From Thermoleophilia bacterium (GTDB taxonomy: Bacteria; Actinomycetota; Thermoleophilia; UBA2241), in NCBI GenBank assembly GCA_040776965.1, contig JAXGZO010000001.1, forward strand, positions 593,419 through 657,418: a stretch of 64,000 nucleotides of DNA, written 5' to 3'. Positions 6,430 through 51,346 of the stretch are shown here, piece after piece. Position 1 is the stretch's first letter. Each line of letters opens with the position of its first letter. The translations under genes were made by a program, and so were the position numbers. The notes below the pieces were generated by a model, which saw nothing but the letters and a program-made list of their open reading frames with translations, had not been told where the DNA came from and did no database searches.

Positions 6430-7197
6430 ATGCTGAGCCGCCGGCCCGAAGCGTCCGAGTGCACCTCCTCGCGTTCGCTCCTCTCCGGGCGGCGTATCGC
6501 GCTCGCCTGTGCGGCCGCCGCGCTGATCGCGGCGTGGGGGGCGGGTAGCGGTTGGCTCCCCGTGCTCGCCGACGCGCCCAACGCCTTGATCTCCTCGGCC
6601 GTGGTGCTCTCCCTCGCCGGCCTCTTCGTCTGGGCCCTCCTGCCGCTCCAGGCGCTCGGCCGGCGCCTTCCGCTCGTCACCGTGGTGGCGCTGCCGCTCG
6701 CCGTGCTCTTGGTCTGGCTCGGCTGGATCCCACTCGCCAACGTCGCCAAGGTGCTCGCGGCGGCTGCGCTCGGCATCTGGATCGCCTTCGAGATAGAGCA
6801 GCTCAGCTGGATCGTCGCGGTGGCCGCCGTCTCCACGCTCGTCGACATCATGAGCGTTGCCGTGGGGCCCACCAAGGCTATCCTCGGCCAGGGGCCGGTC
6901 GTGGTGGGGTACTTCACCGTCGCCATCACCTGGATGGGCTACGCCTTTACGGAGGGGTACTCGGGGTTGGGGGTGAGCGACGTGATCTTCTTCGCGCTCT
7001 ACCTCGGCGCCGCGCAGCGGTTCGGCTTGCGGGTGGGGTGGAGTGCGGTGGCCATGGTGGCCTCGTTTCTCGTCACGCTCGCCGTGGCGTTGTGGTGGCG
7101 GGCACTGCCGGCGCTGCCGCTGCTCGCCGTGGCCTTTTTGTGCACCAATGCCGATTTAATCTGGGCCCGCCTGCGGCGGCCCGGGCCAGCGGTGTAG
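6430..7197 (+). CDS. Integral membrane protein (multi-TM), unknown function
   Basis: ATG at 6430 overlaps the preceding stop. Highly hydrophobic with GC-rich codon usage. The alternate frame 6552-7301 is Arg/Ala-rich and rejected. Confidence 0.55.
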   Translation: MLSRRPEASECTSSRSLLSGRRIALACAAAALIAAWGAGSGWLPVLADAPNALISSAVVLSLAGLFVWALLPLQALGRRLPLVTVVALPLAVLLVWLGWIPLANVAKVLAAAALGIWIAFEIEQLSWIVAVAAVSTLVDIMSVAVGPTKAILGQGPVVVGYFTVAITWMGYAFTEGYSGLGVSDVIFFALYLGAAQRFGLRVGWSAVAMVASFLVTLAVALWWRALPALPLLAVAFLCTNADLIWARLRRPGPAV

Positions 7198-7233
7198 CAG
7201 CTCCGCTCTTGTGTCGCGAGTGCGCGGAGCGAC

Positions 7234-8379
7234 TTAGAGGTCGGCGAAGTGCTCCGGGGTGCCCTCGTAGGCGACCACGTTATTTTTGCCACTCCGCTTA
7301 GCCTTGTACATCATCTCGTCGGCGATCTTTACGAGAGCGTCAACGCCCATGTGGGCGGGGGCATTAACAAAGCCCACGCTGCAGGTGAGGGTGCCGATAG
7401 TTGCGAAGGTGTGGGCCTCCACCTCTGAGCGCACGCGCTCCGCAATCGTTGCTATCGTGGTGCTCGGTGTATCGGGCATGAGCAGGAGAAACTCCTCTCC
7501 GCCCCAGCGAATGATGCCGTCGTCCATCCTGAGGCACTCGCGCAGGAGGGCTGCGAACTCTATGAGCGTCTCGTCGCCGACCTCGTGGCCGTAGGTGTCG
7601 TTGATGGTTTTAAAGTTGTCGATGTCGAACAGGATGGCGGCTATCATGTGCTTCGCTTTATTGTTCTCCGTGAGCTCTTTGACCCTGTAGGAATACCAGG
7701 TACGGTTATTGAGTCCGGTGAGCTTGTCGGTGACAGACATGCGCTCAAGTTCCTTTTGCTGCACGTATTTTTCGCGCTTCGATATATTGCTTGTGCGTTT
7801 AAACCAGGATAAAAATACTATTGCAAGAACGAGATAAGATACAGACTGTACGTAGTCGATCTTGTCTTTACTGTGAAGTGTAAAGAAGCTTGCTGCTATA
7901 AATGCGAGTGCAGCGAGCGTATTCATGATGGAGAATCGAGTCCACTGTATGTGGAATACAGAGGTGAATATCATCATGAGCATTATTGCCGATACCTGAT
8001 ATGGATAGTCCTGATAATCAAGAGCTATAATCATATAGGAATAAGTCAGCATTATTGTGAGCAATGCGATCACTATACATATATCAAGCAATGTATAGCT
8101 ATTGACACGCTTAATGACCCTGCTGATGATTACACAAACAAGAAGATCAACGGTTCGCGCCGCGATAGAATGAGCTATATCTTGCGGTGGCGCCTCGTAG
8201 TCGAGCAGGAAGAAAACTAAAAATATAAGCCCGGCATAAAGGATGAGTCGCGCAGTTCTCGCTTTAGTCTCGAGTACGAGGGAGTCGCCGTATGCGCGCT
8301 CGAGCTCGGTGTCGTTAAACTTGCCCCAGGCGTTGATGTAGTCGGGGCGCCTTCTGAAGATCGAGTTGCCGAGTATCAT
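7234..8379 (-). CDS. Membrane-anchored diguanylate cyclase (multi-TM N-terminal domain plus GGDEF domain with GGEEF active site)
   Basis: Carries RxGGEEF, an I-site-like RxxD, DxLTGLxNR and KxAKRSGKN. The N-terminal half is polytopic membrane. ATG at 8379. Confidence 0.85.
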   Translation of the reverse strand: MILGNSIFRRRPDYINAWGKFNDTELERAYGDSLVLETKARTARLILYAGLIFLVFFLLDYEAPPQDIAHSIAARTVDLLVCVIISRVIKRVNSYTLLDICIVIALLTIMLTYSYMIIALDYQDYPYQVSAIMLMMIFTSVFHIQWTRFSIMNTLAALAFIAASFFTLHSKDKIDYVQSVSYLVLAIVFLSWFKRTSNISKREKYVQQKELERMSVTDKLTGLNNRTWYSYRVKELTENNKAKHMIAAILFDIDNFKTINDTYGHEVGDETLIEFAALLRECLRMDDGIIRWGGEEFLLLMPDTPSTTIATIAERVRSEVEAHTFATIGTLTCSVGFVNAPAHMGVDALVKIADEMMYKAKRSGKNNVVAYEGTPEHFADL

Positions 8380-8520
8380 GAACAGCCGCCTGCCGGATCT
8401 TCCTGCGAAAATAATCTTATCTCGGAGTCGGCCTCGGCGCTATTTTTTTAACCCGCGCTCGTGGGATGCTCGGCGATTTGTGGAGGTGGGCGCGGGCGCC
8501 GTGTCGTTTCTGCGAACGTC

Positions 8521-9903
8521 TCAGTTCTTAACGAAGAGCGCGACCGTCTCCACGTGGTGGGTCTGCGGAAACATGTCGACGGGGGCGACCCGCTCGAGGC
8601 GGTAGCCGAGCTCCACGAGCTCGGCCCCGTTGCCGGCGAGCGTGGTGGGGTTGCACGAGACGTAGACGAACCGGTCGGCGCCGAGCGCGGCCGCGCGCTG
8701 CAGGGCCTTGCGGGCCATGCCCGCGCGCGGCGGATCGGTAATGAGCACTGCGGGCCTCTCCGCGTCGTCCGCGCGCGCCGCGTTAAGCGTGGGGTGCGGC
8801 GGAAACTTGAGCAGCGGCCGCACGTTGTGCGCGTAAAAGTGGATGTTCGCGATGCCGCCGAGCTGGGCGTTTTCGCGCGCGGCGAGGATGGCCTCCTCTT
8901 GGATCTCGATAGCCTGCACCGAGCCGGCTCGCAGGGCGAGCGGCAGGCTGATGGAGCCGATGCCGCAGTAGAGGTCGACGGCCGGCCTGGTGGCATCCGG
9001 GGCGGCCAGCCGCAATGTGGTCTCGTAGAGTACCTCGCACATCGCGCTGTTGGTCTGCAAAAAGGCGGTGGCCGGCACGCGGAGCTCTACGCCGGCGAGG
9101 CGCTCGCGGAGGAAGGGCTCGCCGAGCAGGAGGTGTGGCTCGCCCACCGCGGCGTCGGCGAGTGCGTCGTTGACGGTAACGGCGAAGGAGGTACAGCCGC
9201 AGGCCTCGGCGACGCGCTCGGCGAGCTCGCGCTCCTCGGGGAACCGCGAGGTGACGAAGAGGTTGAGCAGGAGGTCGCCGCTCGTAGCGCTCTCGCGCAC
9301 CACGAGGTGACGCAGGAGGCCCTCGTGGCGGTGGCGGTTGTAGGGGGTGAGGCCGAGGGAGCGGCAGGCCTCGAGGGTAGAGGCTCGGGCGAGGTTCATG
9401 CGCTCCGAGGCCAAGTGGCAGTCGTGGAGCTCCACGATCTCGTGCCAGGAGCCGCGGCGGTGGAGCCCCAGAAGGGGGCGGCCGTCTTCGCTCTGCCCAA
9501 ACGAGAACTCCATCTTGTTGCGGTAGCGCCAGGGGTGCGCCATGCCGCGCACGGGCTCCTGCGTGAACCCGGTGAGGTGGCCGAGCCGCTCCAGGGAGTC
9601 GGCCACCTGCTGCGCCTTGTACTCGAGCTGCGCGTCGTACGAGAGCGTCTGCCACTCGCAGCCGCCGCACTCGTGCGCGTGCGCGCAGGTGGGTGCGCAA
9701 CGGCGTGGGGAGGGGGTGAGCACCTCGAGGGTGGTGGCCTCCGCGTGGCTGCGCTTGCGCCGCGTGACGCGCGCCCGCACGCGGTCGCCCGGTACGGCGC
9801 CGCGGAGGAAGACGACGAAGTCGTCGTGGCGCGCCACGCCCTGACCTCCGTAGGCGAGGGTCGTGACGTCGAGCTCGAGGATGTCTCCGGGGCGCGGTGG
9901 CAT
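8521..9903 (-). CDS. 23S rRNA (uracil-C5)-methyltransferase, RlmD/RumA family (TRAM + 4Fe-4S + SAM methyltransferase)
   Basis: TRAM domain at the N-terminus (DILELDVTTLAYGGQGVAR), Cys cluster CxxxxxxCGGCxWQ and a C-terminal class-I methyltransferase. ATG at 9903 is preferred over the 35-aa extension to 10008. Confidence 0.85.
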   Translation of the reverse strand: MPPRPGDILELDVTTLAYGGQGVARHDDFVVFLRGAVPGDRVRARVTRRKRSHAEATTLEVLTPSPRRCAPTCAHAHECGGCEWQTLSYDAQLEYKAQQVADSLERLGHLTGFTQEPVRGMAHPWRYRNKMEFSFGQSEDGRPLLGLHRRGSWHEIVELHDCHLASERMNLARASTLEACRSLGLTPYNRHRHEGLLRHLVVRESATSGDLLLNLFVTSRFPEERELAERVAEACGCTSFAVTVNDALADAAVGEPHLLLGEPFLRERLAGVELRVPATAFLQTNSAMCEVLYETTLRLAAPDATRPAVDLYCGIGSISLPLALRAGSVQAIEIQEEAILAARENAQLGGIANIHFYAHNVRPLLKFPPHPTLNAARADDAERPAVLITDPPRAGMARKALQRAAALGADRFVYVSCNPTTLAGNGAELVELGYRLERVAPVDMFPQTHHVETVALFVKN

Positions 9904-10043
9904 AGTGGTGCAGTCTACTCGTTCGTCGGCTCGACCGCGAGCGAAGGTAAAGGCAAGCGCCGATGCTCGTCGTCCCTTGACGCAAGTACGTCTTCGCGGT
10001 ACGTTCAAAATCCTTTTCTGAAATCGATACCCGCGGGATCTGT

Positions 10044-11030
10044 ATGAAAAGAGGTGCCGTGTTTGGTGGCTTCGCCTCAGAGCTTCGCAAGCTGCGTCGT
10101 CCCGCCTTTCTCTGGGTCACGCTGGTGGCGATCGTTCTCGCCGTCATCATCGCGGCCTTTAGTCAGCAGAGTCAGCGGACGTATCTTTTTAACCTCCGCG
10201 ACGGCGAACGCCAGTTCCTCGCCACCCCACCCGCGCCGGCCGACCTCGGCCTCAAGCCCGGCCCGGCCTACCGAAGGGCGATCGCCGAGCAGCAGCAGAG
10301 TCTGCACCGGCAGGTCGTGGAGGCGACCGCTCAAGCGGAGCTCGTGGGCGCTACGCAGCACCCCGCCGGTGCCCTTGGCTTTGTAGCCCGGCTCCTGGCA
10401 TCCTCACTCGGCTTCTTTGTCGTCTGCCTTCTCGCCGGTCTCCACGTAGGCGGAGAGTGGGAGCAGGGCAGCGTGAAAGACGTGCTCATCCGCGAGCCCA
10501 GCCGTCTGCGCTTCGTAGCGCTCAAGACGCTCTCGCTCTGGGCGGCGAGCGGCGCTATCCTCCTGCTCGCCTGGCTCGGCGTCGCCCTCTTCGGGCTGCT
10601 CTCGCAGCATCTCTGGCCGCTCCCGCAGCCTCCCTCAACCGCCGCCGTATGGCTCTGGGGTGGCCGCCAGCTCCTGCGAGCGCTCCCCGTGCTCTTGCTC
10701 TTCGTCACCACGGGGGTGAGCTTGGCTGTTCTGTTGAGGAGTGTGCTCGCGCCGGTGGTGGGTGGGGTGGTGTTGGCCGCCACTGGGTTTTTTCTCTCGC
10801 AGTTCGATCTCGTCTGGGGGTGGGTGTTCCCCTCCAGCTGGATCGCCGAGATTATGCAGTACGACACCAATCGCGCCCCCGTTAACTTTCTGCTCGACCA
10901 CCCCCTTACGGCCAGTCGAGTTACGGCGATGCCGTGGGGGGTGGCGCTCGGCGCAGTGGTGCTGCTGAGCGCCCTGCTCTTCGCCGGTACGGCGAAGCGC
11001 ATGGGCGCGCGGCGCGACAGCGTGGTGTAG
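10044..11030 (+). CDS. ABC-2-family permease-like membrane protein (orphan; no adjacent ATPase)
   Basis: Six predicted TM segments. Conserved ExExGT-like loop (GGEWEQGS) typical of ABC-2 permeases. Confidence 0.5.
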   Translation: MKRGAVFGGFASELRKLRRPAFLWVTLVAIVLAVIIAAFSQQSQRTYLFNLRDGERQFLATPPAPADLGLKPGPAYRRAIAEQQQSLHRQVVEATAQAELVGATQHPAGALGFVARLLASSLGFFVVCLLAGLHVGGEWEQGSVKDVLIREPSRLRFVALKTLSLWAASGAILLLAWLGVALFGLLSQHLWPLPQPPSTAAVWLWGGRQLLRALPVLLLFVTTGVSLAVLLRSVLAPVVGGVVLAATGFFLSQFDLVWGWVFPSSWIAEIMQYDTNRAPVNFLLDHPLTASRVTAMPWGVALGAVVLLSALLFAGTAKRMGARRDSVV

Positions 11031-21676: not shown

Positions 21677-22915
21677 TTAGGGCTGCGCCGGGTCGGGTTG
21701 CGTCGTCCACCCCTTCTCTCCCTCAATACGCAACAAGAAGACGGGGATGAGGAGGGCTGCAAAGTACAGGGCGAGCAATACGGTGAACAAGGCGGTATAG
21801 GAGCCGGTATGGGCGAGTACATATGAGCTCAGCTGGTTGCCGAAGAGCCCCGCCATCGCCCAGGCGGTGAGCGAGAGCCCGTGGATCTTGCTGATGTTCT
21901 CCATACCGAAGCAATCAGACAAAAGAGTGGGGAGATTGCTAAAGCCTCCACCGTAGGTGGAGTTAATAGCGCAGAGAAGCAGTACTACGATAAAGGCATT
22001 GCCGATAGTTACACTATCCGTGGCGAGTGCGAGGAGGAGCGAGGACACCGAGAGCAGGAGCATAAAGCTATAGATGCTGCTTCGCTTCTTTAATCTGTCT
22101 GATATAACCGAGTAAAAGAACCGTCCACTAGAGTTGAATATAGCTGTTATTGAAGAAAGAGATCCTATGGCAACTATCGATAGTCCGATGTGTTTCATGA
22201 GATCTTTTTCTTGAGATATAAGAGCTAGTCCGCAGCTGATGTTTAAGAAAAGAATAAACCAAACCGCAATAAAATTGCGATTCTTTGCAAGCGAAAAGAA
22301 AGACACCTTGCTTTTCTCATGCTCCTCAGTATAGCCATCTGGCTTTTTTATGAGAAAAACAGCGGTCATCATGAGTAGGAAATAAGTAGCCGACAAGATA
22401 AAAAAGGTACTTATAATTCCAAAGTTTTTGTTTAAGACGACGATGGCCGGACTCGCAATCACCTTCGCGAGTCCGAAGCCCGTGATGGCGAGCCCCGTCG
22501 CTAGCCCCTTATTTTTTGAAAACCAGAGCATCAGTGTTTTAACGGGGGAGATATAGCCAATGCCAAGGCCTACCCCCATGAGGACACCGTAGCTTAGATA
22601 CACACCAGGTAAGCTTTCAAAGAGAAGAGAAACGCCCGTTAAGGCCATTCCAAGAGAGAAGCACGCTGCGGCGATAAGCGACGAGCGCTTTACGTTTTTC
22701 TCAACGAATCCGCCGGAGAAAGCGGCGGATATGCCTAAAAAGAAAATCGCTAGGCTAAAGGCCCACTCCACATCGGCAACCCCACGCCCGATGCTCTCCG
22801 CTATATCGAACTTCAGCAGCGACCAACAGTACACGCTGCCGATGCTGCAATGAATTAAAAGTGCAGGTGCGGCACCGTGCTTTATGGCGGGCGCATACTT
22901 TTTAAGGAAGTTCAT
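21677..22915 (-). CDS. MFS transporter (oxalate/formate antiporter-like family)
   Basis: Twelve-TM MFS topology. Conserved loop GxLxDRxGxR-like (VISDRLKKRS). The central ~400 nt is markedly AT-rich. Confidence 0.85.
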   Translation of the reverse strand: MNFLKKYAPAIKHGAAPALLIHCSIGSVYCWSLLKFDIAESIGRGVADVEWAFSLAIFFLGISAAFSGGFVEKNVKRSSLIAAACFSLGMALTGVSLLFESLPGVYLSYGVLMGVGLGIGYISPVKTLMLWFSKNKGLATGLAITGFGLAKVIASPAIVVLNKNFGIISTFFILSATYFLLMMTAVFLIKKPDGYTEEHEKSKVSFFSLAKNRNFIAVWFILFLNISCGLALISQEKDLMKHIGLSIVAIGSLSSITAIFNSSGRFFYSVISDRLKKRSSIYSFMLLLSVSSLLLALATDSVTIGNAFIVVLLLCAINSTYGGGFSNLPTLLSDCFGMENISKIHGLSLTAWAMAGLFGNQLSSYVLAHTGSYTALFTVLLALYFAALLIPVFLLRIEGEKGWTTQPDPAQP

Positions 22916-23189: not shown

Positions 23190-24401
23190 TTACACGGTGC
23201 GCGGCACTCGCTCGTTCAAGAGCTTGGCCTTGACCTCCTGGACGGTGACGCCCTCGAGGTTGCGCCGGGCTAAGAGGGCGGTCGCTCCGCCGCCGCCGAC
23301 GGCGAGATACGAGTCGGCGTCGATGCGCCGAAGGGCGCGGATGCTCCCCCCAAACCCCGCCACTTCCTCGCCGTAGGCGAACTCTCCGTTGGGGGCGCGG
23401 GTGAGGATGCGCGTCTCGCCGTTGGTAAAGGCGCCGCCCACCACGACCCATGAGTCCGCGTCGAGCGGCTGGATGCCGTTGACGTTGGCTCCGAAGCCCT
23501 CCACGGGCTGGCTGTAGCCGAAGCCCCCCTCGTCGTCTCGGGTGAGGATGCACGTGGCGCCCCTCGCCCCCGCGACGATCCACGAGGAGTCGTTGATCGC
23601 GTGGATCGTGCTGATGGAGGAGCTGGGGAATCCCTCTACGCGCTCGCCGTAGGAGGAGTTGCCACGGGGGTCGCGGGTGAAGATGCGCGTCTCGCCGCCG
23701 TCGCCGGCGACGATCGTGGAGGTCGCGTCGACCTTCTCGCTCGCTCGGATGTTGCCGCCGAAGCCCTCGATGTTCTCCCGGTAGATAAAGCTGCTCTGCG
23801 CGTACCTCGTTAAAATCCTCGTCTCGCCGTTGTGCCCGGCGATAAAAAACGAGTCGTTGTTGATGCGTTCTACGGTCGTGATGGCGGAGGTGAAGCCCTC
23901 GATGGCCTCTCCGTAGGCGAAGCCGTCCTCCTCCGAGGAGGTGAGGAGGCGTGTCTCGCCGTCGTAGCCGGCGACGATCCACGAATGGTCGTCGACGGCG
24001 TGCACCGCGCTGATGCTGTTGGTGAACCCCTTTGCCTCGTCGCCGTAGAGGAAGATGCTTGCGTCGAGGCGCGTGAGTACGCGGGTTTCGCCGTAGTCCC
24101 CAAACGCTATCCACGAGGTGTGCCCGAGGGGCTCGACGAGAGTGATGCCGCTCGTGAAACCCTCGACGGCGTGTACGTAGACCAAGTCGCCGAACCCGAG
24201 CTCCTCCGCGAGCTCTCGCTTGTGCTCAAGGAGGAGCTTGTCGAGCTCGAGCTCCGCGTCCTTTACCTTGTCTCTAAACTCCGACGCGGTGACCTCATCC
24301 GGGAGTTTGCCGTTTTCGTTAACGTACTTCTCTATCGTCTTGAGCTCTTTGAGAAAATCGTTGTAGAGCTTGAGCTGTTGTTTTAATCTGCGAGATTTCA
24401 T
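23190..24401 (-). CDS. Repeat protein: N-terminal coiled coil plus seven tandem ~42-45-aa repeats (YGExxEGFxxxI...D.SW.VAG..GETRILTR); possible 7-bladed beta-propeller. No family assigned.
   Basis: Repeats read directly from the translation. ATG at 24401 lies 1 nt after the vWA gene stop. Confidence 0.7.
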   Translation of the reverse strand: MKSRRLKQQLKLYNDFLKELKTIEKYVNENGKLPDEVTASEFRDKVKDAELELDKLLLEHKRELAEELGFGDLVYVHAVEGFTSGITLVEPLGHTSWIAFGDYGETRVLTRLDASIFLYGDEAKGFTNSISAVHAVDDHSWIVAGYDGETRLLTSSEEDGFAYGEAIEGFTSAITTVERINNDSFFIAGHNGETRILTRYAQSSFIYRENIEGFGGNIRASEKVDATSTIVAGDGGETRIFTRDPRGNSSYGERVEGFPSSSISTIHAINDSSWIVAGARGATCILTRDDEGGFGYSQPVEGFGANVNGIQPLDADSWVVVGGAFTNGETRILTRAPNGEFAYGEEVAGFGGSIRALRRIDADSYLAVGGGGATALLARRNLEGVTVQEVKAKLLNERVPRTV

Positions 24402-24402
24402 A

Positions 24403-26481
24403 TTACCTGGTTACCGTGTCGCTTAATTTGCGTTGCAAATTTTGAATAAGAAGATCTGGTAGTTTGCTTACTTCGCTTCCAATGATAATGCCGTTATCGC
24501 CCCATACGTCTTTAAAGACTTTTCCGTCGGTATCGTCTCCAACTAAAAACGCAACTAATTCGATGTGCTGCTCTCGTAGATGGTTTACGTAGAGTTTCAC
24601 CTCATCGATATCGAAGGGTTCTCCGTCGGTGATCTCAAAGATGATCTTCTTCATCTTTCCCTTTTTGAGGTCGACCTGCCGCTTTGAGTCGTAGGTGAGG
24701 TCGTTCAGGAGGTGCTTGAGTACCCCCGCGTTCTCGGTAATGCCCTCGCGGGCGTCTAAAAAGACGATGGATTGAATGATCTCCGACATGGACTGCGCGC
24801 TCGTCTCGTCTTTTGAGAACCTCTTGATCTGCCGGTAGTCGTTGCCGAAGACGAACATCTCGGTGATGGCTCGCAGCGAGAAGCCGTCGCGCATGAGCTC
24901 CTCGTTGAAATCCCTAACGGAGGTGAGGAGCAGCGTCGCCGCGAGCTTTGCCTGGTGGATCCTGTCGCCGTTCATCGACCCGGAGTTGTCGATCACCAGC
25001 GATATCTCGATGGACTCGGGCACCTTGATCTTCTCGCAGTCCACCGCGCGCCGGTCGTAGACGTTGAGCTTGGGCTGCTTGCCCTCCAGGATCTGCTCGC
25101 GGTACTCGGGGTACTGCTGGATGAACTCGTAGACGTTGAGCCTGCCCCTGGGCTGCCGGGTGTGCACGGTGAGCGCGCTGTCGTAGTACTCGCCGATCAG
25201 CCTGCTCCAAAAGTCGACCATCTGGAGGCGCTCGCCTTTAATGCCCTGCGCGATCTCGTCGAACTTTTGGCGCACCTCCGGGGTGATGCTGAAGTCGCGG
25301 TCGAAGGCGCGCTGCCGCTCGAGGCGGTCGCGCTCCGCTCGCTCCGCCCGGGTCATCTCGTCCTCTCGCTGTTTTTTGAGGATCTCCTCGATAAGCTGCT
25401 CATCCTCCTCGGGGGAGTGGGTGAGGGGCGAGTCTTGCTGGGCGAATCGCGTGAAGAACTCGTCGATGAGCTCATCGATGTCGTAGGCTGCGTCGTCTTC
25501 TGGGGGCTGAACTCCGCCGGCCTCGTTGCCGTGCCCCTCGGTCTGCTCGTCGCTGCGCTCCTCGCCCAGGCCCTCTTCCTCCTGGCTCCTGCGGCCCTCC
25601 TGCGTGTGGGTCTCGCTCCTCGCCTCGTCGTCACCGCTCGCCTCGCCGGTCTGTGGCCACTCCGGCAGGAGGCGCTGGAGGTCCTCCAGTAGGAGCTCCA
25701 AAAACGTGGGCAGGATGCGCTCGCCGATGATCTGGTAACGGAGGGCCGGGTCGATAGGCCCCAGGGTCGGTTTGAGTTTTTTGTTGAGGATGTCGACGAT
25801 GGTGCGCCCAAACCAGATCTTTTGGCGGAGCGCCTCCGTCACGGGCTCGGAGATGACCGATCGCGCGCCGTCGGGGACCATCTCGTCGCGCACCAAGGGG
25901 CGCACGAGCTGCGTGTACAGCGGGCGCTCGGTGAAGTCGCTCTCGCCTCCGCCGAGCTTGAGGTAGATATCGCGGACCTGCTCCCTGCCGGAGGGCTGGC
26001 TGTAGTAGCCGGCCTTTCGCGCCACGGTGGTGTTGAGGTAGAGCTCGTCGATGGCGGCGTAGAGCTGGGCGATGACGGTGGAGAGGTGGCGCCGGAGGGA
26101 GGAGCTGCTGAGGCCGTTTCGCTCCTCCTCGCTGAAGTTCTTCAGCACCACCTCGCCGGCGAGGATCTTCTTTGTAAACTCCCTCGCCGCGCGCTCGATG
26201 AAGGCGAACTTCGCGCTGTGCGCGGCCGGGTTGTGGCGCACGTCGGTGAAGTGCGAGAGCTCGCGAAAGAGCATCCACCTGAACTGATCCTTGGTGATCT
26301 GGTTCTCGGCAAGCCAGCGCAGGGGGATGCGGACGGTGTGGTCGCCGTGGTGGTAGGAGAACGCGTCGCCCTCGGGGTCGAGGGCGTACTTAAGGCTGCG
26401 GTCGCCGGCGAAGACGTCGAGCAGCGGGCGGCTTTTTTTGAGCCACTCGGAGGCGATGCTCTCGTAGCGGTCGAGCGGCAT
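24403..26481 (-). CDS. Large vWA-domain protein (C-terminal von Willebrand A domain with DxSxS MIDAS; ~480-aa unassigned N-terminal region with acidic linker)
   Basis: VIDNSGSMNGDRI... MIDAS motif. ATG at 26481 overlaps the AAA gene stop (TAATG); the alternative GTG at 26520 is rejected. Confidence 0.8.
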   Translation of the reverse strand: MPLDRYESIASEWLKKSRPLLDVFAGDRSLKYALDPEGDAFSYHHGDHTVRIPLRWLAENQITKDQFRWMLFRELSHFTDVRHNPAAHSAKFAFIERAAREFTKKILAGEVVLKNFSEEERNGLSSSSLRRHLSTVIAQLYAAIDELYLNTTVARKAGYYSQPSGREQVRDIYLKLGGGESDFTERPLYTQLVRPLVRDEMVPDGARSVISEPVTEALRQKIWFGRTIVDILNKKLKPTLGPIDPALRYQIIGERILPTFLELLLEDLQRLLPEWPQTGEASGDDEARSETHTQEGRRSQEEEGLGEERSDEQTEGHGNEAGGVQPPEDDAAYDIDELIDEFFTRFAQQDSPLTHSPEEDEQLIEEILKKQREDEMTRAERAERDRLERQRAFDRDFSITPEVRQKFDEIAQGIKGERLQMVDFWSRLIGEYYDSALTVHTRQPRGRLNVYEFIQQYPEYREQILEGKQPKLNVYDRRAVDCEKIKVPESIEISLVIDNSGSMNGDRIHQAKLAATLLLTSVRDFNEELMRDGFSLRAITEMFVFGNDYRQIKRFSKDETSAQSMSEIIQSIVFLDAREGITENAGVLKHLLNDLTYDSKRQVDLKKGKMKKIIFEITDGEPFDIDEVKLYVNHLREQHIELVAFLVGDDTDGKVFKDVWGDNGIIIGSEVSKLPDLLIQNLQRKLSDTVTR

Positions 26482-28877
26482 TACGCTATCAGGCTCTCCA
26501 GGGAGGAGACGAGGGAGCACAGCTCATTGAGCTTCTGCTCGAGCGCGTCGAACTCCTCCTCGGTGATCTCGTCCTTAAAGGTGGCCTCGAGGGCCTCGTA
26601 GATCTGCGGGTACGAGCTCCGCCTCTCGGGTTCGCCGTACAGGAGGTCGATCATCTGCTTTAGGCTGAAGAACTCGCTTCGCTGTTTTTTGTAGGTGTAC
26701 GCCTTGGTTCGGATGTCGTCGAGCGTGAGCGACCGGTGCTCCACGCTCTCCTTGTGCGTGTCGATCCTCCAGCCGTCGAGTTCGCTGAAGAGCCCAACGA
26801 GTTTGGCCTGCTCCGCGATGAAGTGCTGATCTTTAACGTACTCGCCGCTGATGGACCCGAGGAACTCATCCCACAGCGCCATGCTGATATCGCGCTTGGA
26901 GCCCTCGTCCCACGCCTCGATCACGCGCAGCACGTGGCGGACCGAGAGCACGTAGGAGTCGAGGGAGGGCTTCTCGCCGGAGGAGTCGCCGGCCACGTCG
27001 GCGTTTACCGCGCTCTCCTCCCACTTGCCGGAGAAGACGTCTTGGGTGATGCGCGCCAGCTGGCAGAGCCTGAAGATGTCGTCGATGGCGCCCTGCGGGA
27101 GCTCAAGGTTGCCGCGCTCGTCGGCGAGTTTCGTCATGACGATGTAGAAGAGCTCGTTGAGGCGCGGATCCCGCTGGTTACCGAGGTTGCCCTCTTTGCT
27201 CTGCGTCACGTAGTCGTAGGCCTTCTCGCTCAGCCGCGAGAGGTAGGCGGCGTTCAGCGAGTTAACCCCGGCGTAGGCCATCTTGGAGCTGCTGTTGAGG
27301 TTGCCGGTCATGATGATCGAGAAGCCATTCGCTATGGTGACCGCGTCGTCACCCGGGATGATCGCCTTCTCGCCCGGCCGTTTGGTGAGGATGTCGTTCA
27401 TCGACGCCAGTACCTCGGGCATGATCAGGTTGATCTCGTCGATCACGATCGGCTTGCCCTCGGTGATCGCCTTGTAGAGGGCCTTGCGCACCTTGGCAGA
27501 CTCCGTGGCGATCTGCGTTTGGTTGTTGCCGGCTACCGCGGATTCGATCACCGCCCTTTGGGCGGTGAGCTCGTCCGCGTCGGTGACGGTGGGGTGGTTG
27601 TGCCGCCAGAGCGCGAACTCGGCGTCGACCTTGTCGCTGATCTCGTGGGGGAGGGGCGCGCCGATGGCCTTAACGACGAGGGCGGTCTCCGTGTAGAGGT
27701 CCTCCGTCGTCGTCGTCCTGGAGCCGACCACCTCGTAATACTTGATCTTGTCGATGACCTCACGGTCGCCTCTTTTGAGGCCCCGGAGGTAGTGCTGGTA
27801 CAGCGCGTCGTACTGCGCGAGGAGGGCTTCGCCGCTCGCGTTTGGGTGCTCCGCCAAAAACGCTCGGAGGTCCTCCTCGATGTGCAGGTCGACCATGTGG
27901 TGCAGCGACGCCGTGCGGGCGATCTCGCTCTTGCCGGCGCCCAGGTGGCCGGTTAAAAAGACGGGGTGGCCGTTCTCCATCTTGTCGAGGAGCCACTCCT
28001 TGGTCTGCGCCACGGAGGGCACATCGACGATCTCGCCCCTCCTGTGGTGGGCGATCTGCTCGAGGTAGTCGTCGGACTTAATAAGGTAGTAAGCCTCCGG
28101 GTTTTTGGCCTCGAGCTCTCGGAGAGCCCGTTTCTTCTCGATGAGCGTGCGGAGGTGGGCGTCGCGAAGCACCTGGTGCTCATCGCGTCGGTCGGTAAAG
28201 AGGTGCCGGAGGACCCCGTACGAGATGCGCTCCAGCCTTATCGACGTTTTGAGGTCGTTGTACTCCCTCAGCGCGATGTCGTGCTCCGATCGCTTGAGGA
28301 ACCTCAAAAAGTACTCGGTCTCGAGGTCGATCTCGCCCCGCAGACTCTCTCTGTCGGCGCGAAGCCGGGAGAGCTCGTGGTGCAGCTCGTCGCTCTTCTC
28401 GCGGACGACGGCGTCGATGGAGCGCCGCAGAAAACCGCCGATGCTCGCCGTCGCGCTCGCCCTCGCGAGTGTGTCGAGGAGCGAGAGGTGTTTGCGGATC
28501 TGCGCGTCGATAGCCAGGAGCTTGTCGAGCACGTCTTCTTTGTAGTTCAGGTGGTTCGTGATGCGCTCGAGGTCCTGGCAGGTGAGTACGTCCAGGAGCC
28601 GTGACTCCTCCTCGGGGGCCGAGAGGGGCTCGTGGTCGTCGCGGTCGGCGATCTCCCGCAGGTGGAGCGCCTGGAGGGCCTCTCGGGCGTTGGCGATCGC
28701 CCTCGCGTCGTCGCGGAGCTTCGCCGCCCGCAGGGCGTCGATGGCCGCGCCGCGTTGGTCTTCGTCGCGCTCTCTCGCGCGCAGTATGCGGGCGGCCAGC
28801 GCCGACCGCTCCTCTCTCGAGCCGGACGGAGCGCGGTTCGAGGTTGTGTGTGCTGGTGTTCTCTCCACGGTGGTCAT
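26481..28877 (-). CDS. MoxR-like AAA+ ATPase, unusually large (798 aa) with N-terminal coiled coil and an insert between the Walker motifs
   Basis: Walker A FLTGHLGAGKSEIART. Walker B/sensor PIVIDEINLIMPEVLASMNDIL (DEINxxxP as in MoxR/CbbQ/NorQ). Confidence 0.8.
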   Translation of the reverse strand: MTTVERTPAHTTSNRAPSGSREERSALAARILRARERDEDQRGAAIDALRAAKLRDDARAIANAREALQALHLREIADRDDHEPLSAPEEESRLLDVLTCQDLERITNHLNYKEDVLDKLLAIDAQIRKHLSLLDTLARASATASIGGFLRRSIDAVVREKSDELHHELSRLRADRESLRGEIDLETEYFLRFLKRSEHDIALREYNDLKTSIRLERISYGVLRHLFTDRRDEHQVLRDAHLRTLIEKKRALRELEAKNPEAYYLIKSDDYLEQIAHHRRGEIVDVPSVAQTKEWLLDKMENGHPVFLTGHLGAGKSEIARTASLHHMVDLHIEEDLRAFLAEHPNASGEALLAQYDALYQHYLRGLKRGDREVIDKIKYYEVVGSRTTTTEDLYTETALVVKAIGAPLPHEISDKVDAEFALWRHNHPTVTDADELTAQRAVIESAVAGNNQTQIATESAKVRKALYKAITEGKPIVIDEINLIMPEVLASMNDILTKRPGEKAIIPGDDAVTIANGFSIIMTGNLNSSSKMAYAGVNSLNAAYLSRLSEKAYDYVTQSKEGNLGNQRDPRLNELFYIVMTKLADERGNLELPQGAIDDIFRLCQLARITQDVFSGKWEESAVNADVAGDSSGEKPSLDSYVLSVRHVLRVIEAWDEGSKRDISMALWDEFLGSISGEYVKDQHFIAEQAKLVGLFSELDGWRIDTHKESVEHRSLTLDDIRTKAYTYKKQRSEFFSLKQMIDLLYGEPERRSSYPQIYEALEATFKDEITEEEFDALEQKLNELCSLVSSLESLIA

Positions 28878-41929: not shown

Positions 41930-43024
41930 CTACCGCCGCGTGCGACCGCCCGCTCCGTCGCCCACACTGCGCCCCTGCGAGGCGAGCAGCGCGAGGAGGC
42001 TCTCGTTGATGGCGTCGGCGGTCTCGTGGGCGGCGGCCTTCTGCGGGTAGATTTCGTACTTCGCTCGCTCCGGTGCGGGGGTGAGGTTGGGCATGATCAC
42101 GTTGGCGCCGCGAAGGAGGCCGTGAGTCCTGCCCGTACTCCGCTTAAGCAGCGAGAGCGCCGTGGTGGCCGGGAGGTTCGCGTCGGGGCGCACGAGGCGG
42201 GTGAGCGCGATGACCTTGCAGGTCGCGAGCTCGGTGTTAGGCGCCTGGTCGGCGGGCCAGTCGTCGCTCGCGGTGCGGCGTGCGAACTCGTGGCCGAGCG
42301 GCGTATCGGGGTGGGGGAGGTAGGGGCCGATGCCGATCATGTCCATGTCGGTGCTGCGGAAGAGCTCGATGTCGTCGGCGATGGAGGCGTAGGTTTGGCC
42401 GGGGAGGCCGACCATGATGCCGGTCCCCGTCTCGTAGCCGAGCTCCTGAAGGCGGGCGAGGATCGCGAGGCGGTCGCTCACGCGCCCCGGGAGGTCGGGG
42501 TGGATGCGGCGGTAGAGCTGCTCGTCGGAGGTCTCGAAACGCAGGAGGTAGCGGTCGGCGCCGGCCTCACGCCAGAGTGAGAGGTCGGCGTCTGAGCGCT
42601 CGCCAAGGCTGAGGGTGACGGCGAGCTCCGTCTCCTGGCGGAGGCGCCGCACGACGCGGGCGACCCAGTCGGCGGCGAGGCCGTAGTCCTCGCCGGCTTG
42701 GAGCACTACGGTGCCGTACTTGTACGCGCGTGCGCGGTGCGCGCACGCGAGGATGTCGTCGGCGGACATGCGGTAGCGCTCGACCGCGCGGTTGCCCGCC
42801 CGGATGCCGCAGTACGCGCAGCGCCGCACGCAGTGGTTTGAGATCTCGATGAGCCCGCGGAGGTGCACCGCGTCGCCCACGGTGCGGCGGCGTGTGTCGT
42901 CGGCCGCCCGCCAGAGCTGCTCAAGGCGGGTTTCGTCGCGCTCGCGGAGCCAGCGCTCGATCTCCTCGTGGGTGAGGGCGTCGCCGACGCCGATGGCCGG
43001 GCTCGCCTGCGGTCGCCCGGTCAT
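41930..43024 (-). CDS. hydE: [FeFe]-hydrogenase maturase HydE (radical SAM)
   Basis: CVRRCAYCG radical-SAM cluster in a biotin-synthase-like fold. ATG at 43024 overlaps the hydF stop (ATGA). Confidence 0.9.
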   Translation of the reverse strand: MTGRPQASPAIGVGDALTHEEIERWLRERDETRLEQLWRAADDTRRRTVGDAVHLRGLIEISNHCVRRCAYCGIRAGNRAVERYRMSADDILACAHRARAYKYGTVVLQAGEDYGLAADWVARVVRRLRQETELAVTLSLGERSDADLSLWREAGADRYLLRFETSDEQLYRRIHPDLPGRVSDRLAILARLQELGYETGTGIMVGLPGQTYASIADDIELFRSTDMDMIGIGPYLPHPDTPLGHEFARRTASDDWPADQAPNTELATCKVIALTRLVRPDANLPATTALSLLKRSTGRTHGLLRGANVIMPNLTPAPERAKYEIYPQKAAAHETADAINESLLALLASQGRSVGDGAGGRTRR

Positions 43025-44322: not shown

Positions 44323-44335
44323 GGCTCTCCCGGGG

Positions 44336-44596
44336 TCAGCGGTTGAAGAGCATGGTCTGCGTCTGCACGCCGTCCAGAGCGTCGAGCTTGGCGGTGATCG
44401 CGGTGGCCGTCTCCTCGCCGCCGAGCAGCTCGAGGATGATCAGGCCGCTCGGCGAGCAGGACTGCTCGTCGGTCTCGTGGAGCCCAATGCGCGTTTTAAT
44501 GCTGCAGCCGTACTCGGTGAGCACGCGCTGGACCTCCGCGGCGCCGGCGGAGCGGTTGGCTACGTAGATGCCGAGGATCACAGAGGTGTTGTTCAC
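44336..44596 (-). CDS. Putative iron-only hydrogenase system regulator (TM1266-like small ACT-like protein)
   Basis: 86-aa protein between hydG and hydF with GAGAGGA RBS and GTG start. Position and size match the TM1266 family, which is conserved in hydEFG clusters. Confidence 0.65.
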   Translation of the reverse strand: MNNTSVILGIYVANRSAGAAEVQRVLTEYGCSIKTRIGLHETDEQSCSPSGLIILELLGGEETATAITAKLDALDGVQTQTMLFNR

Positions 44597-44617
44597 GGTC
44601 GTTCCTCTCGTGGGTGA

Positions 44618-46021: not shown

Positions 46022-46035
46022 ATGACTCCTTCGCT

Positions 46036-46074
46036 GGGAGGAGGCGACCCCGTGTGGAGAGGTCGCCTCCTCCC
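46036..46074 (-). promoter_or_regulatory. Very stable 14-bp perfect stem-loop (GGGAGGAGGCGACC-N11-GGTCGCCTCCTCCC) between hydA and hydG, with a second 7-bp hairpin at 46082-46098
   Basis: Inverted repeats read from the sequence. No U-tract follows in transcript orientation. The hydG RBS lies immediately 3' of it. Confidence 0.45.
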
Positions 46075-46112
46075 TTCAGTGAACAGGCTCCGCCTGTTGT
46101 ACCCCGAGTCGC

Positions 46113-47885: not shown

Positions 47886-47902
47886 CCTTCAGCACTCCTT
47901 GA

Positions 47903-50956: not shown

Positions 50957-50972
50957 GTCGCTTCACCTATTC

Positions 50973-51344: not shown

Positions 51345-51346
51345 GG

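What the first reader, a model, noticed from the sequence alone, without database searches (positions are those of the whole stretch)
7234..8379. Compositionally chimeric diguanylate cyclase: AT-rich membrane domain grafted onto a GC-rich GGDEF domain
Within one ORF, about the first 130 nt and the GGDEF-encoding 3' half are ~65-70% GC. Roughly 500 nt encoding the polytopic membrane segment (about 7740-8250) are strongly AT-rich, with codons such as TTA, ATA and TTT that are rare elsewhere.

The neighbouring membrane protein at 6430..7197 encodes equally hydrophobic sequence with GC-rich codons, so hydrophobicity alone does not explain the drop. The MFS gene (21677..22915) shows a similar internal AT-rich block. 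Together with the low-GC PilZ/GT2 island, this points to recombination with DNA from a low-GC donor, partly involving c-di-GMP signalling modules.
Basis: seen in the sequence. Interest (0 to 1): 0.5.

Follow-up and report, generated by a model that had tools for sequence, protein, structure and literature searches.

The report
Acquired diguanylate cyclase with patchy codon usage
A c-di-GMP-making enzyme gene that this high-GC actinobacterium (class Thermoleophilia) picked up from elsewhere keeps a 530-base AT-rich core inside otherwise host-like codons; this is a real but fairly ordinary trace of gene transfer, not a foreign domain grafted onto a native one.

Summary
ORF 7234..8379 (-) encodes a 381-aa MASE8 + GGDEF diguanylate cyclase. 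Its third-codon-position GC (GC3) is 0.88 in codons 1-34, 0.45 in codons 35-211 (window 7747..8277) and 0.80 in codons 212-381. Host genes average 0.87 (sd 0.09), and native membrane genes reach 0.81-0.92.

The "graft" reading is only partly right. The whole gene, not just the membrane part, is lineage-specific. In 4 close and 33 more distant relatives (Thermoleophilia/Solirubrobacterales), the rumA-like gene sits directly next to the 255-aa membrane-protein/UDG genes, with no GGDEF gene between them.

Both halves find the same distant relatives: ~370-aa MASE8-GGDEF proteins, at most 28% identical in the membrane part and about 40% in the GGDEF part. Both halves also have the amino-acid composition of that family, not of the host. 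Only synonymous sites differ.

The MFS gene is a clearer parallel. All its blocks match Clostridia-like transporters from ~30% GC genomes, yet its GC3 steps from 0.54 to 0.84.

My best reading is one foreign gene that adapted to host composition (ameliorated) unevenly, in blocks (confidence 0.4). The main rival is a later replacement of the sensor core (0.3). No donor was found. Interest is modest: a new member of a known kind.

The parts
7198..8520 (.). Lineage-specific insertion between the stop codon of the 255-aa membrane-protein gene and the stop codon of the rumA-like gene. It carries the GGDEF gene with a 141-nt upstream spacer and a 36-nt downstream spacer.
   Evidence: In L005-L008 (rumA protein 72-74% identical) the two convergent genes are only about 45-80 bp apart. 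None of 37 Thermoleophilia/Solirubrobacterales loci has a GGDEF homologue between rumA and UDG. No flanking repeats, mobility genes or Rfam hits were found.
7234..8379 (-). ORF of 381 aa encoding a MASE8-GGDEF diguanylate cyclase.
   Evidence: Pfam GGDEF 139 bits and MASE8 29.0 bits (cutoff 26.2). TIGR00254 150 bits. Aligns to PleD 1w25. AlphaFold model has pLDDT 82. The identical protein occurs in 4 Logan contigs and on an NCBI contig of 1.66 Mb.
8278..8379 (-). Codons 1-34: N-terminal cytoplasmic segment with the family motif F21..E27 (FNDTELERAY). Codon usage is host-like, GC3 0.88.
   Evidence: Segmentation. F21 is invariant and E27 nearly invariant in the family alignment.
7747..8277 (-). 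Codons 35-211: AT-rich core encoding the six-helix membrane sensor (MASE8) and the start of the long linker helix. GC 0.412, GC3 0.45. Codon usage is rich in ATA, CTT, GTA, GCA and TAT.
   Evidence: Helices 24-60, 65-91, 95-119, 127-140, 146-167 and 170-215 in the model. The family residues R75, W146 and R202 are kept.
7237..7746 (-). Codons 212-381: end of the linker helix plus the GGDEF catalytic domain. GC3 is 0.80 (host-like), but the amino-acid composition is family-like rather than host-like.
   Evidence: (codon log-ratio 0.70 against host 1.05, sd 0.15).
7489..7503 (-). GGEEF active-site motif (residues 293-297).
   Evidence: Read directly from the sequence. Invariant in the family alignment. 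Aligned to the GGEEF of PleD.
7519..7530 (-). RMDD, an RxxD inhibitory (I-) site five residues upstream of GGEEF (residues 284-287).
   Evidence: R284 and D287 invariant.
6430..7197 (+). Native flanking gene for a 255-aa polytopic membrane protein. It serves as the control for hydrophobicity (GC3 0.92).
   Evidence: Orthologues 60-69% identical lie directly next to rumA in L005-L008. Kyte-Doolittle mean 1.11.
8521..10008 (-). Native flanking gene for a rumA-like TRAM/uracil-5 RNA methyltransferase. The true start is probably about 25-37 codons downstream of the ORF start.
   Evidence: Pfam. Relatives align from residue 24-38 onward. The first 37 codons have GC3 0.49.
21677..22915 (-). Comparator: an acquired OFA-family MFS transporter with its own GC3 step (0.54 in codons 1-337, 0.84 in codons 338-412, break near 21904).
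57346..61352 (+). Comparator and possible functional partner: a low-GC island encoding PilZ-TM-HlyD (Alg44-like architecture, with RKYHR and DWSLGG motifs) and a GT2-beta-helix protein. GC3 is 0.26-0.32, stepping to 0.77 in the last 57 codons (near 61179).

Best explanation
**What it is.** The ORF encodes a complete, probably active membrane-bound diguanylate cyclase. It has a short cytoplasmic N-terminal motif and six transmembrane helices (MASE8). The last helix runs without a break into a GGDEF domain. That domain has intact GGEEF, metal-binding DxD and RxxD feedback sites.

**How it probably works (inferred).** A signal sensed in or at the membrane is passed along the continuous helix to dimerising GGDEF domains, which make c-di-GMP. 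A plausible client is the PilZ-HlyD/GT2 polysaccharide module 50 kb away, which was also acquired.

**Origin.** The whole 1.3-kb gene was gained by horizontal transfer into the spacer between two convergent native genes. It came from an unidentified organism of lower GC that carried the same MASE8-GGDEF architecture.

**The compositional 'chimera'.** It exists only at synonymous sites. The 5' 100 nt and the 3' 510 nt have drifted to the host's codon usage. The 531-nt sensor core has done so only part-way. I commit to one acquisition followed by block-wise, uneven adaptation to host base composition (amelioration), not to a domain graft. What makes the process block-wise was not established. 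Tract-like gene conversion or GC-biased repair is my guess.
For: **Shown**
- Gene identity and motifs and the fold.
- Absence from the syntenic site in 37 relatives.
- The sequence is reproducible in 4 assemblies.
- GC3 blocks of 0.88 / 0.45 / 0.80.

**For a single ancestry of both halves**
- The same homologues are best for the membrane part and tied-best for the GGDEF part.
- The query is proportionally more divergent than other family pairs in both halves: 0.195 against 0.234 in the membrane part, and 0.379 against 0.450 in the GGDEF part, a ratio of about 0.84 for each.
- GC1 and GC2 of both halves equal those of homologues from 47-56% GC genomes, in which GC3 is uniform along the gene.
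- Rare ATA codons persist in the GC3-rich parts (p = 5e-4) and dominate the core.
- The core's C/G-ending Leu codons follow the host's unusual CTC over CTG preference, unlike the homologues (p = 9e-5). This suggests long residence.

**Parallel case in the same window**
- All three blocks of the MFS gene have the same best hits, from ~30% GC genomes. The ratio of query-to-homologue identity over homologue-to-homologue identity is flat across the gene. Yet GC3 runs from 0.40 to 1.00.

**Against site-wise selection**
- Within each block GC3 does not differ between conserved and variable sites.
Against: - The block edges are sharp and the contrast is large. Uniform site-by-site amelioration cannot produce that, so the model needs an unidentified tract-like or region-specific process.
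- The least constrained part of the protein is the least ameliorated. That is the opposite of a simple neutral expectation at the amino-acid level.
- The breakpoints fall next to the two most conserved motifs (F..ELE..Y and DKLTGLNNR). Crossovers between homologous alleles would be expected exactly there.
- The CTC preference does not distinguish the core from the low-GC island, 8:2 against 13:8 (p = 0.43). An unknown donor with a CTY preference is therefore not excluded.
- No close homologue exists anywhere (at most 33% identity among 5.8 billion clusters; at most 28% for the core among 1.84 billion representatives). History therefore cannot be read from a tree.
Confidence: 0.4

Rival explanations
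1. Two-step mosaic. An older, already ameliorated MASE8-GGDEF gene had its sensor core (codons ~35-211) replaced later. The replacement was a younger, lower-GC segment of the same family, with junctions at the conserved N-terminal motif and at the start of the GGDEF domain.
For: - Sharp, step-like GC3 edges.
- The edges sit at the conserved motifs that flank the variable core.
- The core shows neither synonymous nor amino-acid shift toward the host.
- Sharp-edged patches that ignore gene and domain borders recur in the window, for example inside the VWA domain at about 24624 and in the GT2 and MFS genes. That is the geometry expected of imported tracts.
Against: - No donor or closer relative of the core exists.
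- Both halves point to the same homologues and are equally diverged.
- Alleles differing by about 35-45 points of GC3 and by much protein sequence would share too little nucleotide identity for homologous recombination. An in-frame, in-register illegitimate swap at both ends is improbable, and it would have had to happen several times in 64 kb.
- In the MFS gene all blocks have the same Clostridia-like affinity.
Confidence: 0.3
2. A resident, native GC-rich GGDEF gene of this lineage received a foreign AT-rich membrane domain from a low-GC donor.
For: - The compositional contrast itself.
- Relatives do carry native GGDEF and EAL genes elsewhere.
Against: - No gene exists at this site in 37 relatives.
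- The amino-acid composition and the GC1/GC2 of the GGDEF half are unlike a native GGDEF gene.
- The GC3-rich parts retain rare ATA codons.
- The GGDEF half has no close relative at all, native or otherwise. Its best hits are 41-47% identical and include the MASE8 clade.
- The GC-rich N-terminal 34 codons also belong to the MASE8-family architecture.
Confidence: 0.07
3. The AT-rich core is kept AT-rich by selection. It might be a binding or nucleation site for a nucleoid-associated silencer of foreign DNA, an internal or antisense promoter, or slow-translation codons that help membrane insertion.
For: - Two sigma-70-like matches lie on the opposite strand inside the block, at 8002-8031 and 8102-8130. 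Three such sites were found in the region, against 1.0 (sd 0.9) expected.
- AT-rich patches persist in several acquired genes.
Against: - Promoter-like hexamers are expected by chance in AT-rich DNA.
- There is no Rfam hit. The antisense ORF 7873..8220 has no NCBIfam family match.
- Native membrane genes use GC-rich codons throughout, so membrane insertion does not require AT-rich codons in this host.
- GC3 within the block does not depend on site conservation.
Confidence: 0.08
4. Assembly or binning chimera. Reads from a low-GC organism were joined into a high-GC contig.
For: The source is a metagenome-derived or poorly sampled genome, and the composition changes abruptly.
Against: - Four independent run-level assemblies are 100% identical across both junctions and the flanks.
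- The reading frame is intact, and the family architecture is continuous across both junctions.
Confidence: 0.02

Closest known systems
MASE8-GGDEF diguanylate cyclases (Pfam PF20968 + PF00990), e.g. P0002, P0003, P0142, P0143 and the Breznakiella homolactica GGDEF protein P0009
   Same: - Same length (about 365-380 aa) and same order of parts: N-terminal F..ELE..Y motif, six-helix membrane domain, KR..Y linker, then a GGDEF domain with GGEEF and RxxD.
   Different: - Only 23-28% identical in the membrane part and about 40% in the GGDEF part.
- Lacks the 'PN' of the family's PNRW motif (a 3-residue gap).
- Sits in a 64% GC Thermoleophilia genome, whereas the closest relatives sit in 47-56% GC genomes with uniform GC3.
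PleD GGDEF domain (PDB 1w25/2v0n), the reference diguanylate cyclase
   Same: The catalytic domain aligns over aa 213-371 (105 bits). It shares DxD...NDTxGH, the RxxD I-site and GGEEF.
   Different: PleD is driven by receiver domains. Here the input is a membrane sensor. No biochemical data exist for this protein.
Mosaic genes / partial horizontal gene transfer (as defined in PMC3241670), classic amelioration of transferred genes (my own knowledge: Lawrence and Ochman 1997; also PMC8461475), and GC-biased gene conversion in bacteria (PMC4450053)
   Same: A gene made of alternating blocks with host-like and foreign-like nucleotide composition, in a genome that elsewhere holds un-ameliorated islands.
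   Different: - In a textbook mosaic gene the host-like blocks derive from a host allele. Here relatives have no such allele, and the host-like blocks are foreign at the protein level.
- Textbook amelioration is gradual and uniform along a gene. Here it is step-like.
Alg44/Alg8-type c-di-GMP-activated polysaccharide synthases (comparison from my own knowledge)
   Same: The island at 57346..61352 pairs a PilZ-TM-HlyD-like protein, carrying RxxxR and DxSxxG motifs, with a GT2 glycosyltransferase. That gives the cyclase a plausible target.
   Different: - The proteins are not close to Alg44 or Alg8. PDB hits are only to efflux adaptor proteins.
- The GT2 is fused to a beta-helix domain.
- The link to the cyclase is inferred and the two loci are 50 kb apart.

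Membership tests
GGDEF diguanylate cyclase (PF00990 / TIGR00254) | Domain profile match above the curated threshold | tested here: met
   Pfam 139.2 bits (cutoff 23.8), covering profile positions 2-161 of 161. TIGR00254 150 bits (cutoff 37.4).
GGDEF diguanylate cyclase (PF00990 / TIGR00254) | Intact GG(D/E)EF active site and metal/substrate-binding residues (DxD...N..D) | tested here: met
   RWGGEEF at residues 291-297. FDIDNFKTINDTYGH aligns to PleD's DIDFFKKINDTFGH.
GGDEF diguanylate cyclase (PF00990 / TIGR00254) | Synthesis of c-di-GMP from GTP | not testable with these tools
   Needs an enzyme assay or an in-vivo reporter.
GGDEF diguanylate cyclase (PF00990 / TIGR00254) | RxxD allosteric I-site five residues upstream of GGDEF (present in many but not all family members) | tested here: met
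   RMDD at residues 284-287, followed by GIIRW and then GGEEF. It aligns to RAID of PleD.
MASE8 membrane-associated sensor domain (PF20968) | Profile match above the gathering score | tested here: met
   29.0 bits against 26.2, aa 60-212 over profile positions 3-154 of 154. The margin is small. The precomputed annotation also lists PF20968.
MASE8 membrane-associated sensor domain (PF20968) | Polytopic helical membrane domain N-terminal to a signalling output domain | tested here: met
   Six helices between residues 24 and 215 in the AlphaFold model; 10-residue block means of pLDDT there are mostly 70-90, falling to 63-68 around residues 120-150. Hydropathy stretches. Same architecture as the homologues.
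MASE8 membrane-associated sensor domain (PF20968) | Conserved family residues in the membrane domain | tested here: inconclusive
   F21, E27, R75, W146 and R202 are kept. The PN of the PNRW motif is missing.
Horizontally acquired gene | Absent from the orthologous site in related genomes | tested here: met
   rumA abuts the membrane-protein/UDG genes in L005-L008. No GGDEF homologue lies between rumA and UDG in L005-L042.
Horizontally acquired gene | Composition and codon usage atypical for the host | tested here: met
   The core is 10.8 sd below host windows in the codon log-ratio. The GGDEF half is 2.3 sd below. Amino-acid composition is family-like in both halves.
Horizontally acquired gene | Identifiable donor lineage or mobility machinery | tested here: not met
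   Best homologues are at most 33% identical. No repeats, integrase or tRNA at the site. Plasmid and phage DNA searches hit only the conserved GGDEF core of unrelated genes.
Mosaic gene (partial HGT / intragenic recombination) | Blocks with significantly different composition and defined breakpoints | tested here: met
   LLR 28.4 against a permutation maximum of 11.6. Breakpoints at codons 28-38 and 198-217.
Mosaic gene (partial HGT / intragenic recombination) | Blocks with different phylogenetic affinity (donor against host allele) | tested here: not met
   The same homologues are best for both halves, and divergence is proportional in both. Power is low at 25-40% identity.
Mosaic gene (partial HGT / intragenic recombination) | A host allele from which the host-like blocks derive | tested here: not met
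   No allele in relatives. No homologue above 47% identity to the GGDEF half among the top hits of a 5.8-billion-cluster search that includes the source genome.

The most novel reading that the evidence does not exclude
In this small-genome Thermoleophilia lineage, foreign AT-rich DNA is assimilated to the host's composition in discrete tracts rather than site by site. This leaves sharp GC3 steps inside intact ORFs, and even inside single domains, of one protein ancestry. Four such genes occur in 64 kb: the GGDEF, MFS, GT2 and VWA genes. That would point to a recombination-linked, GC-biased conversion or repair process as the engine of amelioration. Acquired genes would then serve as a natural record of its tract lengths.
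Probability: 0.15. Interest if true: 0.6.

Novelty: new member of a known kind. Interest (0 to 1): 0.3.

Why it matters
- **Annotation.** The gene is a full, probably active MASE8-GGDEF cyclase acquired as a unit. It is not a hybrid with a native domain, so inferences about native c-di-GMP signalling in Thermoleophilia should not rest on it.
- **Physiology.** The window also holds an acquired PilZ-HlyD/GT2 island. That suggests this organism imported both a c-di-GMP source and a c-di-GMP-responsive exopolysaccharide module. With the Clostridia-like lactate/oxalate-formate-type transporter, this fits life among low-GC anaerobes.
- **Method.** A composition-only reading, GC-rich meaning native and AT-rich meaning foreign, can mislead. 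GC1/GC2, amino-acid composition, synteny and per-block homology gave a different answer from GC alone.
- **Open question.** The repeated sharp GC3 steps within genes of single ancestry are unexplained. If general in the genome, they could inform how amelioration actually proceeds.

Tried and rejected
1. **Hydrophobicity or membrane-coding bias.** Rejected. Native membrane genes have GC3 0.81-0.92.
2. **Selection for optimal codons at conserved sites.** Rejected. GC3 is 0.40 against 0.45 (core) and 0.80 against 0.78 (GGDEF half) at conserved against variable sites.
3. **Gene conversion of the GGDEF half by a resident paralogue.** No homologue above 47% identity among the top hits of a search whose database contains the source genome. 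Not supported.
4. **Donor hunt for the core.**
   - The word-indexed search with aa 1-212 returned nothing, not even the protein itself, so that result is a tool limitation and not evidence.
   - The exhaustive HMMER search gave at most 28% identity.
   - Plasmid and phage DNA searches hit only the conserved GGDEF core.
5. **Mobile-element signatures, diversity-generating or inversion systems.** No meaningful direct or inverted repeats and no Rfam family.
6. **C-to-T hypermutation of a once GC-rich core.** Disfavoured. ATA (12) far exceeds ATT (2), CTA is absent, and GC1/GC2 equal those of the family.
7. **Antisense ORF 7873..8220.** No NCBIfam family match. Treated as spurious.
8. **An edge-inward amelioration gradient as a general rule.** Not upheld. 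The 5' edge of the large island is sharp (GC3 0.2 from the first codons), and the 24.3-24.6 kb patch is internal to an operon.
9. **Assembly chimera.** Rejected.
10. **Synteny test for the MFS gene.** Inconclusive. Gene order downstream of clpB differs in the one relative examined.
Full report
**1. The observation**

ORF 7234..8379 on the minus strand encodes 381 aa. Pfam finds a GGDEF domain at aa 216-367 (139 bits). It also finds a MASE8 membrane sensor domain at aa 60-212, just above threshold (29.0 bits against 26.2).

In 120-nt windows GC falls from about 0.58-0.64 to 0.35-0.45 between about 7600 and 8200. At third codon positions a three-segment maximum-likelihood fit gives:

| Codons | Window coordinates | GC3 |
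|---|---|---|
| 1-34 | 8278..8379 | 0.88 |
| 35-211 | 7747..8277 | 0.45 |
| 212-381 | 7237..7746 | 0.80 |

The log-likelihood ratio is 28.4, against a maximum of 11.6 in 300 permutations. Native genes of similar length stay within the permutation null. An abrupt step is the best-fitting shape, and broad ramps are disfavoured.

The other genes of the window average GC3 0.87 (sd 0.087) in 40-codon windows. If the core's amino-acid sequence were written with host codon usage it would be 0.562 GC, not 0.412.

The neighbouring 255-aa membrane protein is more hydrophobic and has GC3 0.92. Two other hydrophobic native genes have 0.81-0.83. Four independent assemblies are identical to the window across the gene.

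**2. Where the window comes from, and the state of the site in relatives**

The source genome is not among the species representatives. The nearest genomes are uncultured Thermoleophilia, whose rumA-like protein is 72-74% identical, followed by Solirubrobacterales.

In all four close relatives the rumA-like gene is followed, 45-80 bp later, by the convergent orthologue of the 255-aa membrane protein, and then by UDG and the GT4-PHP gene. Across all 37 informative loci, no GGDEF homologue lies between rumA and UDG.

The whole interval 7198..8520 is therefore a gain in this lineage. That includes the GC-rich GGDEF half. No repeats, mobility genes or RNA families mark the insertion.

**3. Homology of the two halves**

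A search of 5.8 billion protein clusters found the identical protein only in the source genome and in Logan contigs. The next best hits are 32-33% identical MASE8-GGDEF proteins of the same length.

An exhaustive HMMER search of 1.84 billion representatives with aa 1-212 alone found 18 other proteins, all at most 28% identical. Most are about 370 aa long, with the match covering their N-terminal ~200 residues, which is the length and layout of MASE8-GGDEF proteins. P0142 has both domains on record; P0143 has only the GGDEF hit on record.

The best hits of the membrane half are P0142, P0143, P0002, P0144 and P0003. Two of them, P0143 and P0142, are statistically tied with the top hits of the GGDEF half (136-137 bits against a maximum of 144).

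In a family alignment the query is proportionally more divergent in both halves:
- membrane part: 0.195 against 0.234 for other family pairs
- GGDEF part: 0.379 against 0.450

The GC-rich first 34 codons carry the family's N-terminal motif, with F21 invariant and E27 nearly so. At the protein level I see no evidence of two origins.

**4. What differs between the blocks**

The closest homologues sit in 47-56% GC contigs. Their GC3 is the same in both halves of the gene (0.57/0.52, 0.53/0.64, 0.76/0.73 and 0.64/0.63). Their GC1 and GC2 differ between halves just as in the query. For the query:

| Block | GC1 | GC2 |
|---|---|---|
| Membrane core (codons 35-211) | 0.46 | 0.32 |
| GGDEF half (codons 212-381) | 0.55 | 0.39 |

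About 5 points of the GC drop are therefore a family trait of the encoded protein. Only the GC3 contrast is specific to this gene.

The GGDEF half is not native-like:
- A native GGDEF gene of a relative has GC1 0.71, GC2 0.44, GC3 0.95, FYMINK 0.18 and GARP 0.34.
- The query's GGDEF half has FYMINK 0.28 and GARP 0.24.
- Its codon usage lies 2.3 sd below host windows, while the core lies 10.8 sd below.
- The GC3-rich parts (codons 1-34 and 212-381) keep 4 ATA among 14 Ile codons, against 2.8% in the host (p = 5e-4).
- ATA is also the dominant Ile codon of the core (12 of 21).

The core's C/G-ending Leu codons follow the host's unusual CTC over CTG preference (8:2), unlike the homologues (16:79, p = 9e-5). 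The low-GC island shows 13:8, so this point is only suggestive.

Within each block GC3 is the same at conserved and variable sites. Codon-level selection on constrained residues therefore does not explain the pattern.

**5. The MFS comparator**

Gene 21677..22915 is an OFA-family MFS transporter. Its best homologues are 61-66% identical over 92-97% of the length. The named ones are Gottschalkia acidurici, Lachnospiraceae, Kineothrix and Erysipelotrichaceae.

The two closest, P0160 and P0161, sit on ~30% GC contigs. GC3 is 0.08-0.24 in the P0161 copies and 0.22-0.38 in P0160.

In the window the gene has GC3 0.54 over codons 1-337. The next 26 codons are all G/C-ending, and the 3' block averages 0.84. 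Yet all three blocks have the same best hits. The ratio of query-to-homologue identity over homologue-to-homologue identity is flat at 0.76-0.96 across the gene.

So in this same genome, a gene of clearly single and clearly low-GC ancestry carries a sharp GC3 step. It also shows that such steps need not mean different protein origins.

Similar steps occur in two more genes:
- the GT2-beta-helix gene (0.32 to 0.77 at codon 850)
- inside the VWA domain of gene 24403..26520 (0.89 to 0.44 at codon 632)

In 780 kb of related genomes only four weak patches were found, none below 0.49 GC. The 64-kb window has four strong ones. One caveat applies: the relatives' loci all come from one conserved neighbourhood.

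**6. What the protein is and how it probably works**

The catalytic domain aligns to PleD (1w25) over aa 213-371. The DxD...NDTYGH residues, the RxxD I-site (RMDD, residues 284-287) and GGEEF (residues 293-297) are all conserved.

An AlphaFold model built on 13 sequences has mean pLDDT 82. It shows six helices between residues 24 and 215. The last helix (170-215) continues directly into the GGDEF fold.

The following steps are inferred, not shown. A membrane-derived signal is passed along that helix. It controls the pairing of two GGDEF domains and hence c-di-GMP synthesis. Product inhibition acts through the I-site.

A candidate receiver is the PilZ-TM-HlyD protein at 57346..58632. It has RKYHR and DWSLGG motifs and sits next to a GT2-beta-helix protein in a 30-40% GC island.

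**7. Explanations**

My best reading is that one foreign MASE8-GGDEF gene was inserted between two native genes. Its synonymous sites have since moved to host usage in the two flanking blocks, but only part-way in the core (confidence 0.4). The points in its favour are:
- the common affinity and equal divergence of both halves
- the foreign amino-acid make-up of the GC3-rich half
- the shared ATA codon signature
- the MFS precedent
- the implausibility of homologous recombination between alleles this different

Its weakness is that uniform amelioration cannot make sharp blocks. A tract-like or region-specific process must be assumed, and I could not identify one.

The main rival is a later replacement of the sensor core by a younger, lower-GC segment of the same family (0.3). 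It explains the sharp edges and their position at conserved motifs. It lacks any donor, any phylogenetic signal and a credible mechanism.

The remaining rivals score low:
- a selection-maintained AT patch: 0.08
- an assembly artefact: 0.02

**8. Comparison with what is known, and novelty**

The protein passes the tests for GGDEF and, narrowly, for MASE8. MASE1 through MASE8 are previously defined membrane sensor domains (bioRxiv 10.1101/2021.11.05.467447).

Horizontal acquisition is supported by synteny and composition. No donor or mobility machinery was found.

As a mosaic gene in the sense of PMC3241670, it meets the compositional criterion. It fails the criteria of different block affinities and of a host allele.

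Amelioration (PMC8461475) and GC-biased gene conversion in bacteria (PMC4450053) are known frameworks. I therefore file this as a new, very divergent member of a known kind, with an unexplained block-wise composition.

Interest is 0.3. The more novel reading, tract-wise assimilation of foreign DNA as a property of this genome, gets probability 0.15 and interest 0.6 if true.

Noticed in passing
window 21677..22915 (-): OFA-family MFS transporter. Its closest NCBIfam model is the L-lactate MFS transporter (250 bits, below the 320 cutoff). It was acquired from a Clostridia-like lineage: best homologues are 61-66% identical, and the two closest sit in ~30% GC contigs. GC3 steps from 0.54 to 0.84 at codon 337 (near 21904), although all blocks have the same best hits.
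   Followed up: yes
window 57346..61352 (+): Low-GC island (30-40% GC) with two genes. One encodes a PilZ-TM-HlyD-like protein with RxxxR (RKYHR) and DxSxxG (DWSLGG) c-di-GMP-binding motifs, an Alg44-like architecture. The other encodes a GT2 glycosyltransferase fused to a beta-helix domain. The 5' edge of the island is sharp. GC3 steps to 0.77 in the last 57 codons (near 61179). It is a possible target of the acquired cyclase.
   Followed up: partly
window ~24310..24624, spanning the end of 24403..26520 (-) and the start of 23190..24401 (-): A short AT-rich patch inside an operon that otherwise has GC3 of 0.85-1.0. GC3 drops from 0.89 to 0.44 at codon 632, inside the VWA domain (aa 506-673) (LLR 38). 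The three genes at 23190..28877 (VWA, AAA_5 and one of unknown family) have low GC2, which suggests an older acquisition.
   Followed up: partly
window 8521..10008 (-): The rumA-like ORF probably starts about 25-37 codons downstream of the first possible start. Relatives align only from residue 24-38, and the first 37 codons have GC3 0.49.
   Followed up: partly
window 41930..51883 (-): This cluster holds an [FeFe]-hydrogenase large subunit and a fused NuoF-like/pyridine-nucleotide oxidoreductase. It also holds HydF and two radical-SAM proteins placed as the maturases HydE and HydG would be. It points to an anaerobic, hydrogen-metabolising lifestyle for a Thermoleophilia lineage whose main contig is only 1.66 Mb.
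   Followed up: partly
whole window, compared with L005-L008 and L089: The host codon usage is unusual for a high-GC actinobacterium: Leu CTC exceeds CTG 3:1. Its GC3 (about 0.87) and GC (0.64) are lower than in the nearest relatives (GC3 0.94-0.96, GC 0.67-0.69). The lineage may be drifting to lower GC.
   Followed up: no
window 10044..11030 (+): A 328-aa hydrophobic protein next to rumA has no Pfam family and no tblastn match in the four relatives. A 313-aa gene with no Pfam family on record occupies the equivalent place in L089. It is either very fast-evolving or replaced.
   Followed up: no
L085 6888..7646 and L086/L087 downstream genes: In the genomes of the closest MASE8-GGDEF homologues, the cyclase gene is followed by a TetR-family gene and then other signalling genes. 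In L085 this is a PilZNR-PilZ protein. In L086/L087 these are a chemoreceptor and a GGDEF-EAL protein. The neighbourhood is conserved there and absent here.
   Followed up: no
tool behaviour: The word-indexed protein search with the membrane fragment (aa 1-212) returned no hit at all, not even the identical full-length protein. The exhaustive HMMER search later found that protein at 449 bits. Negative results from that tool for hydrophobic fragments should not be trusted.
   Followed up: yes
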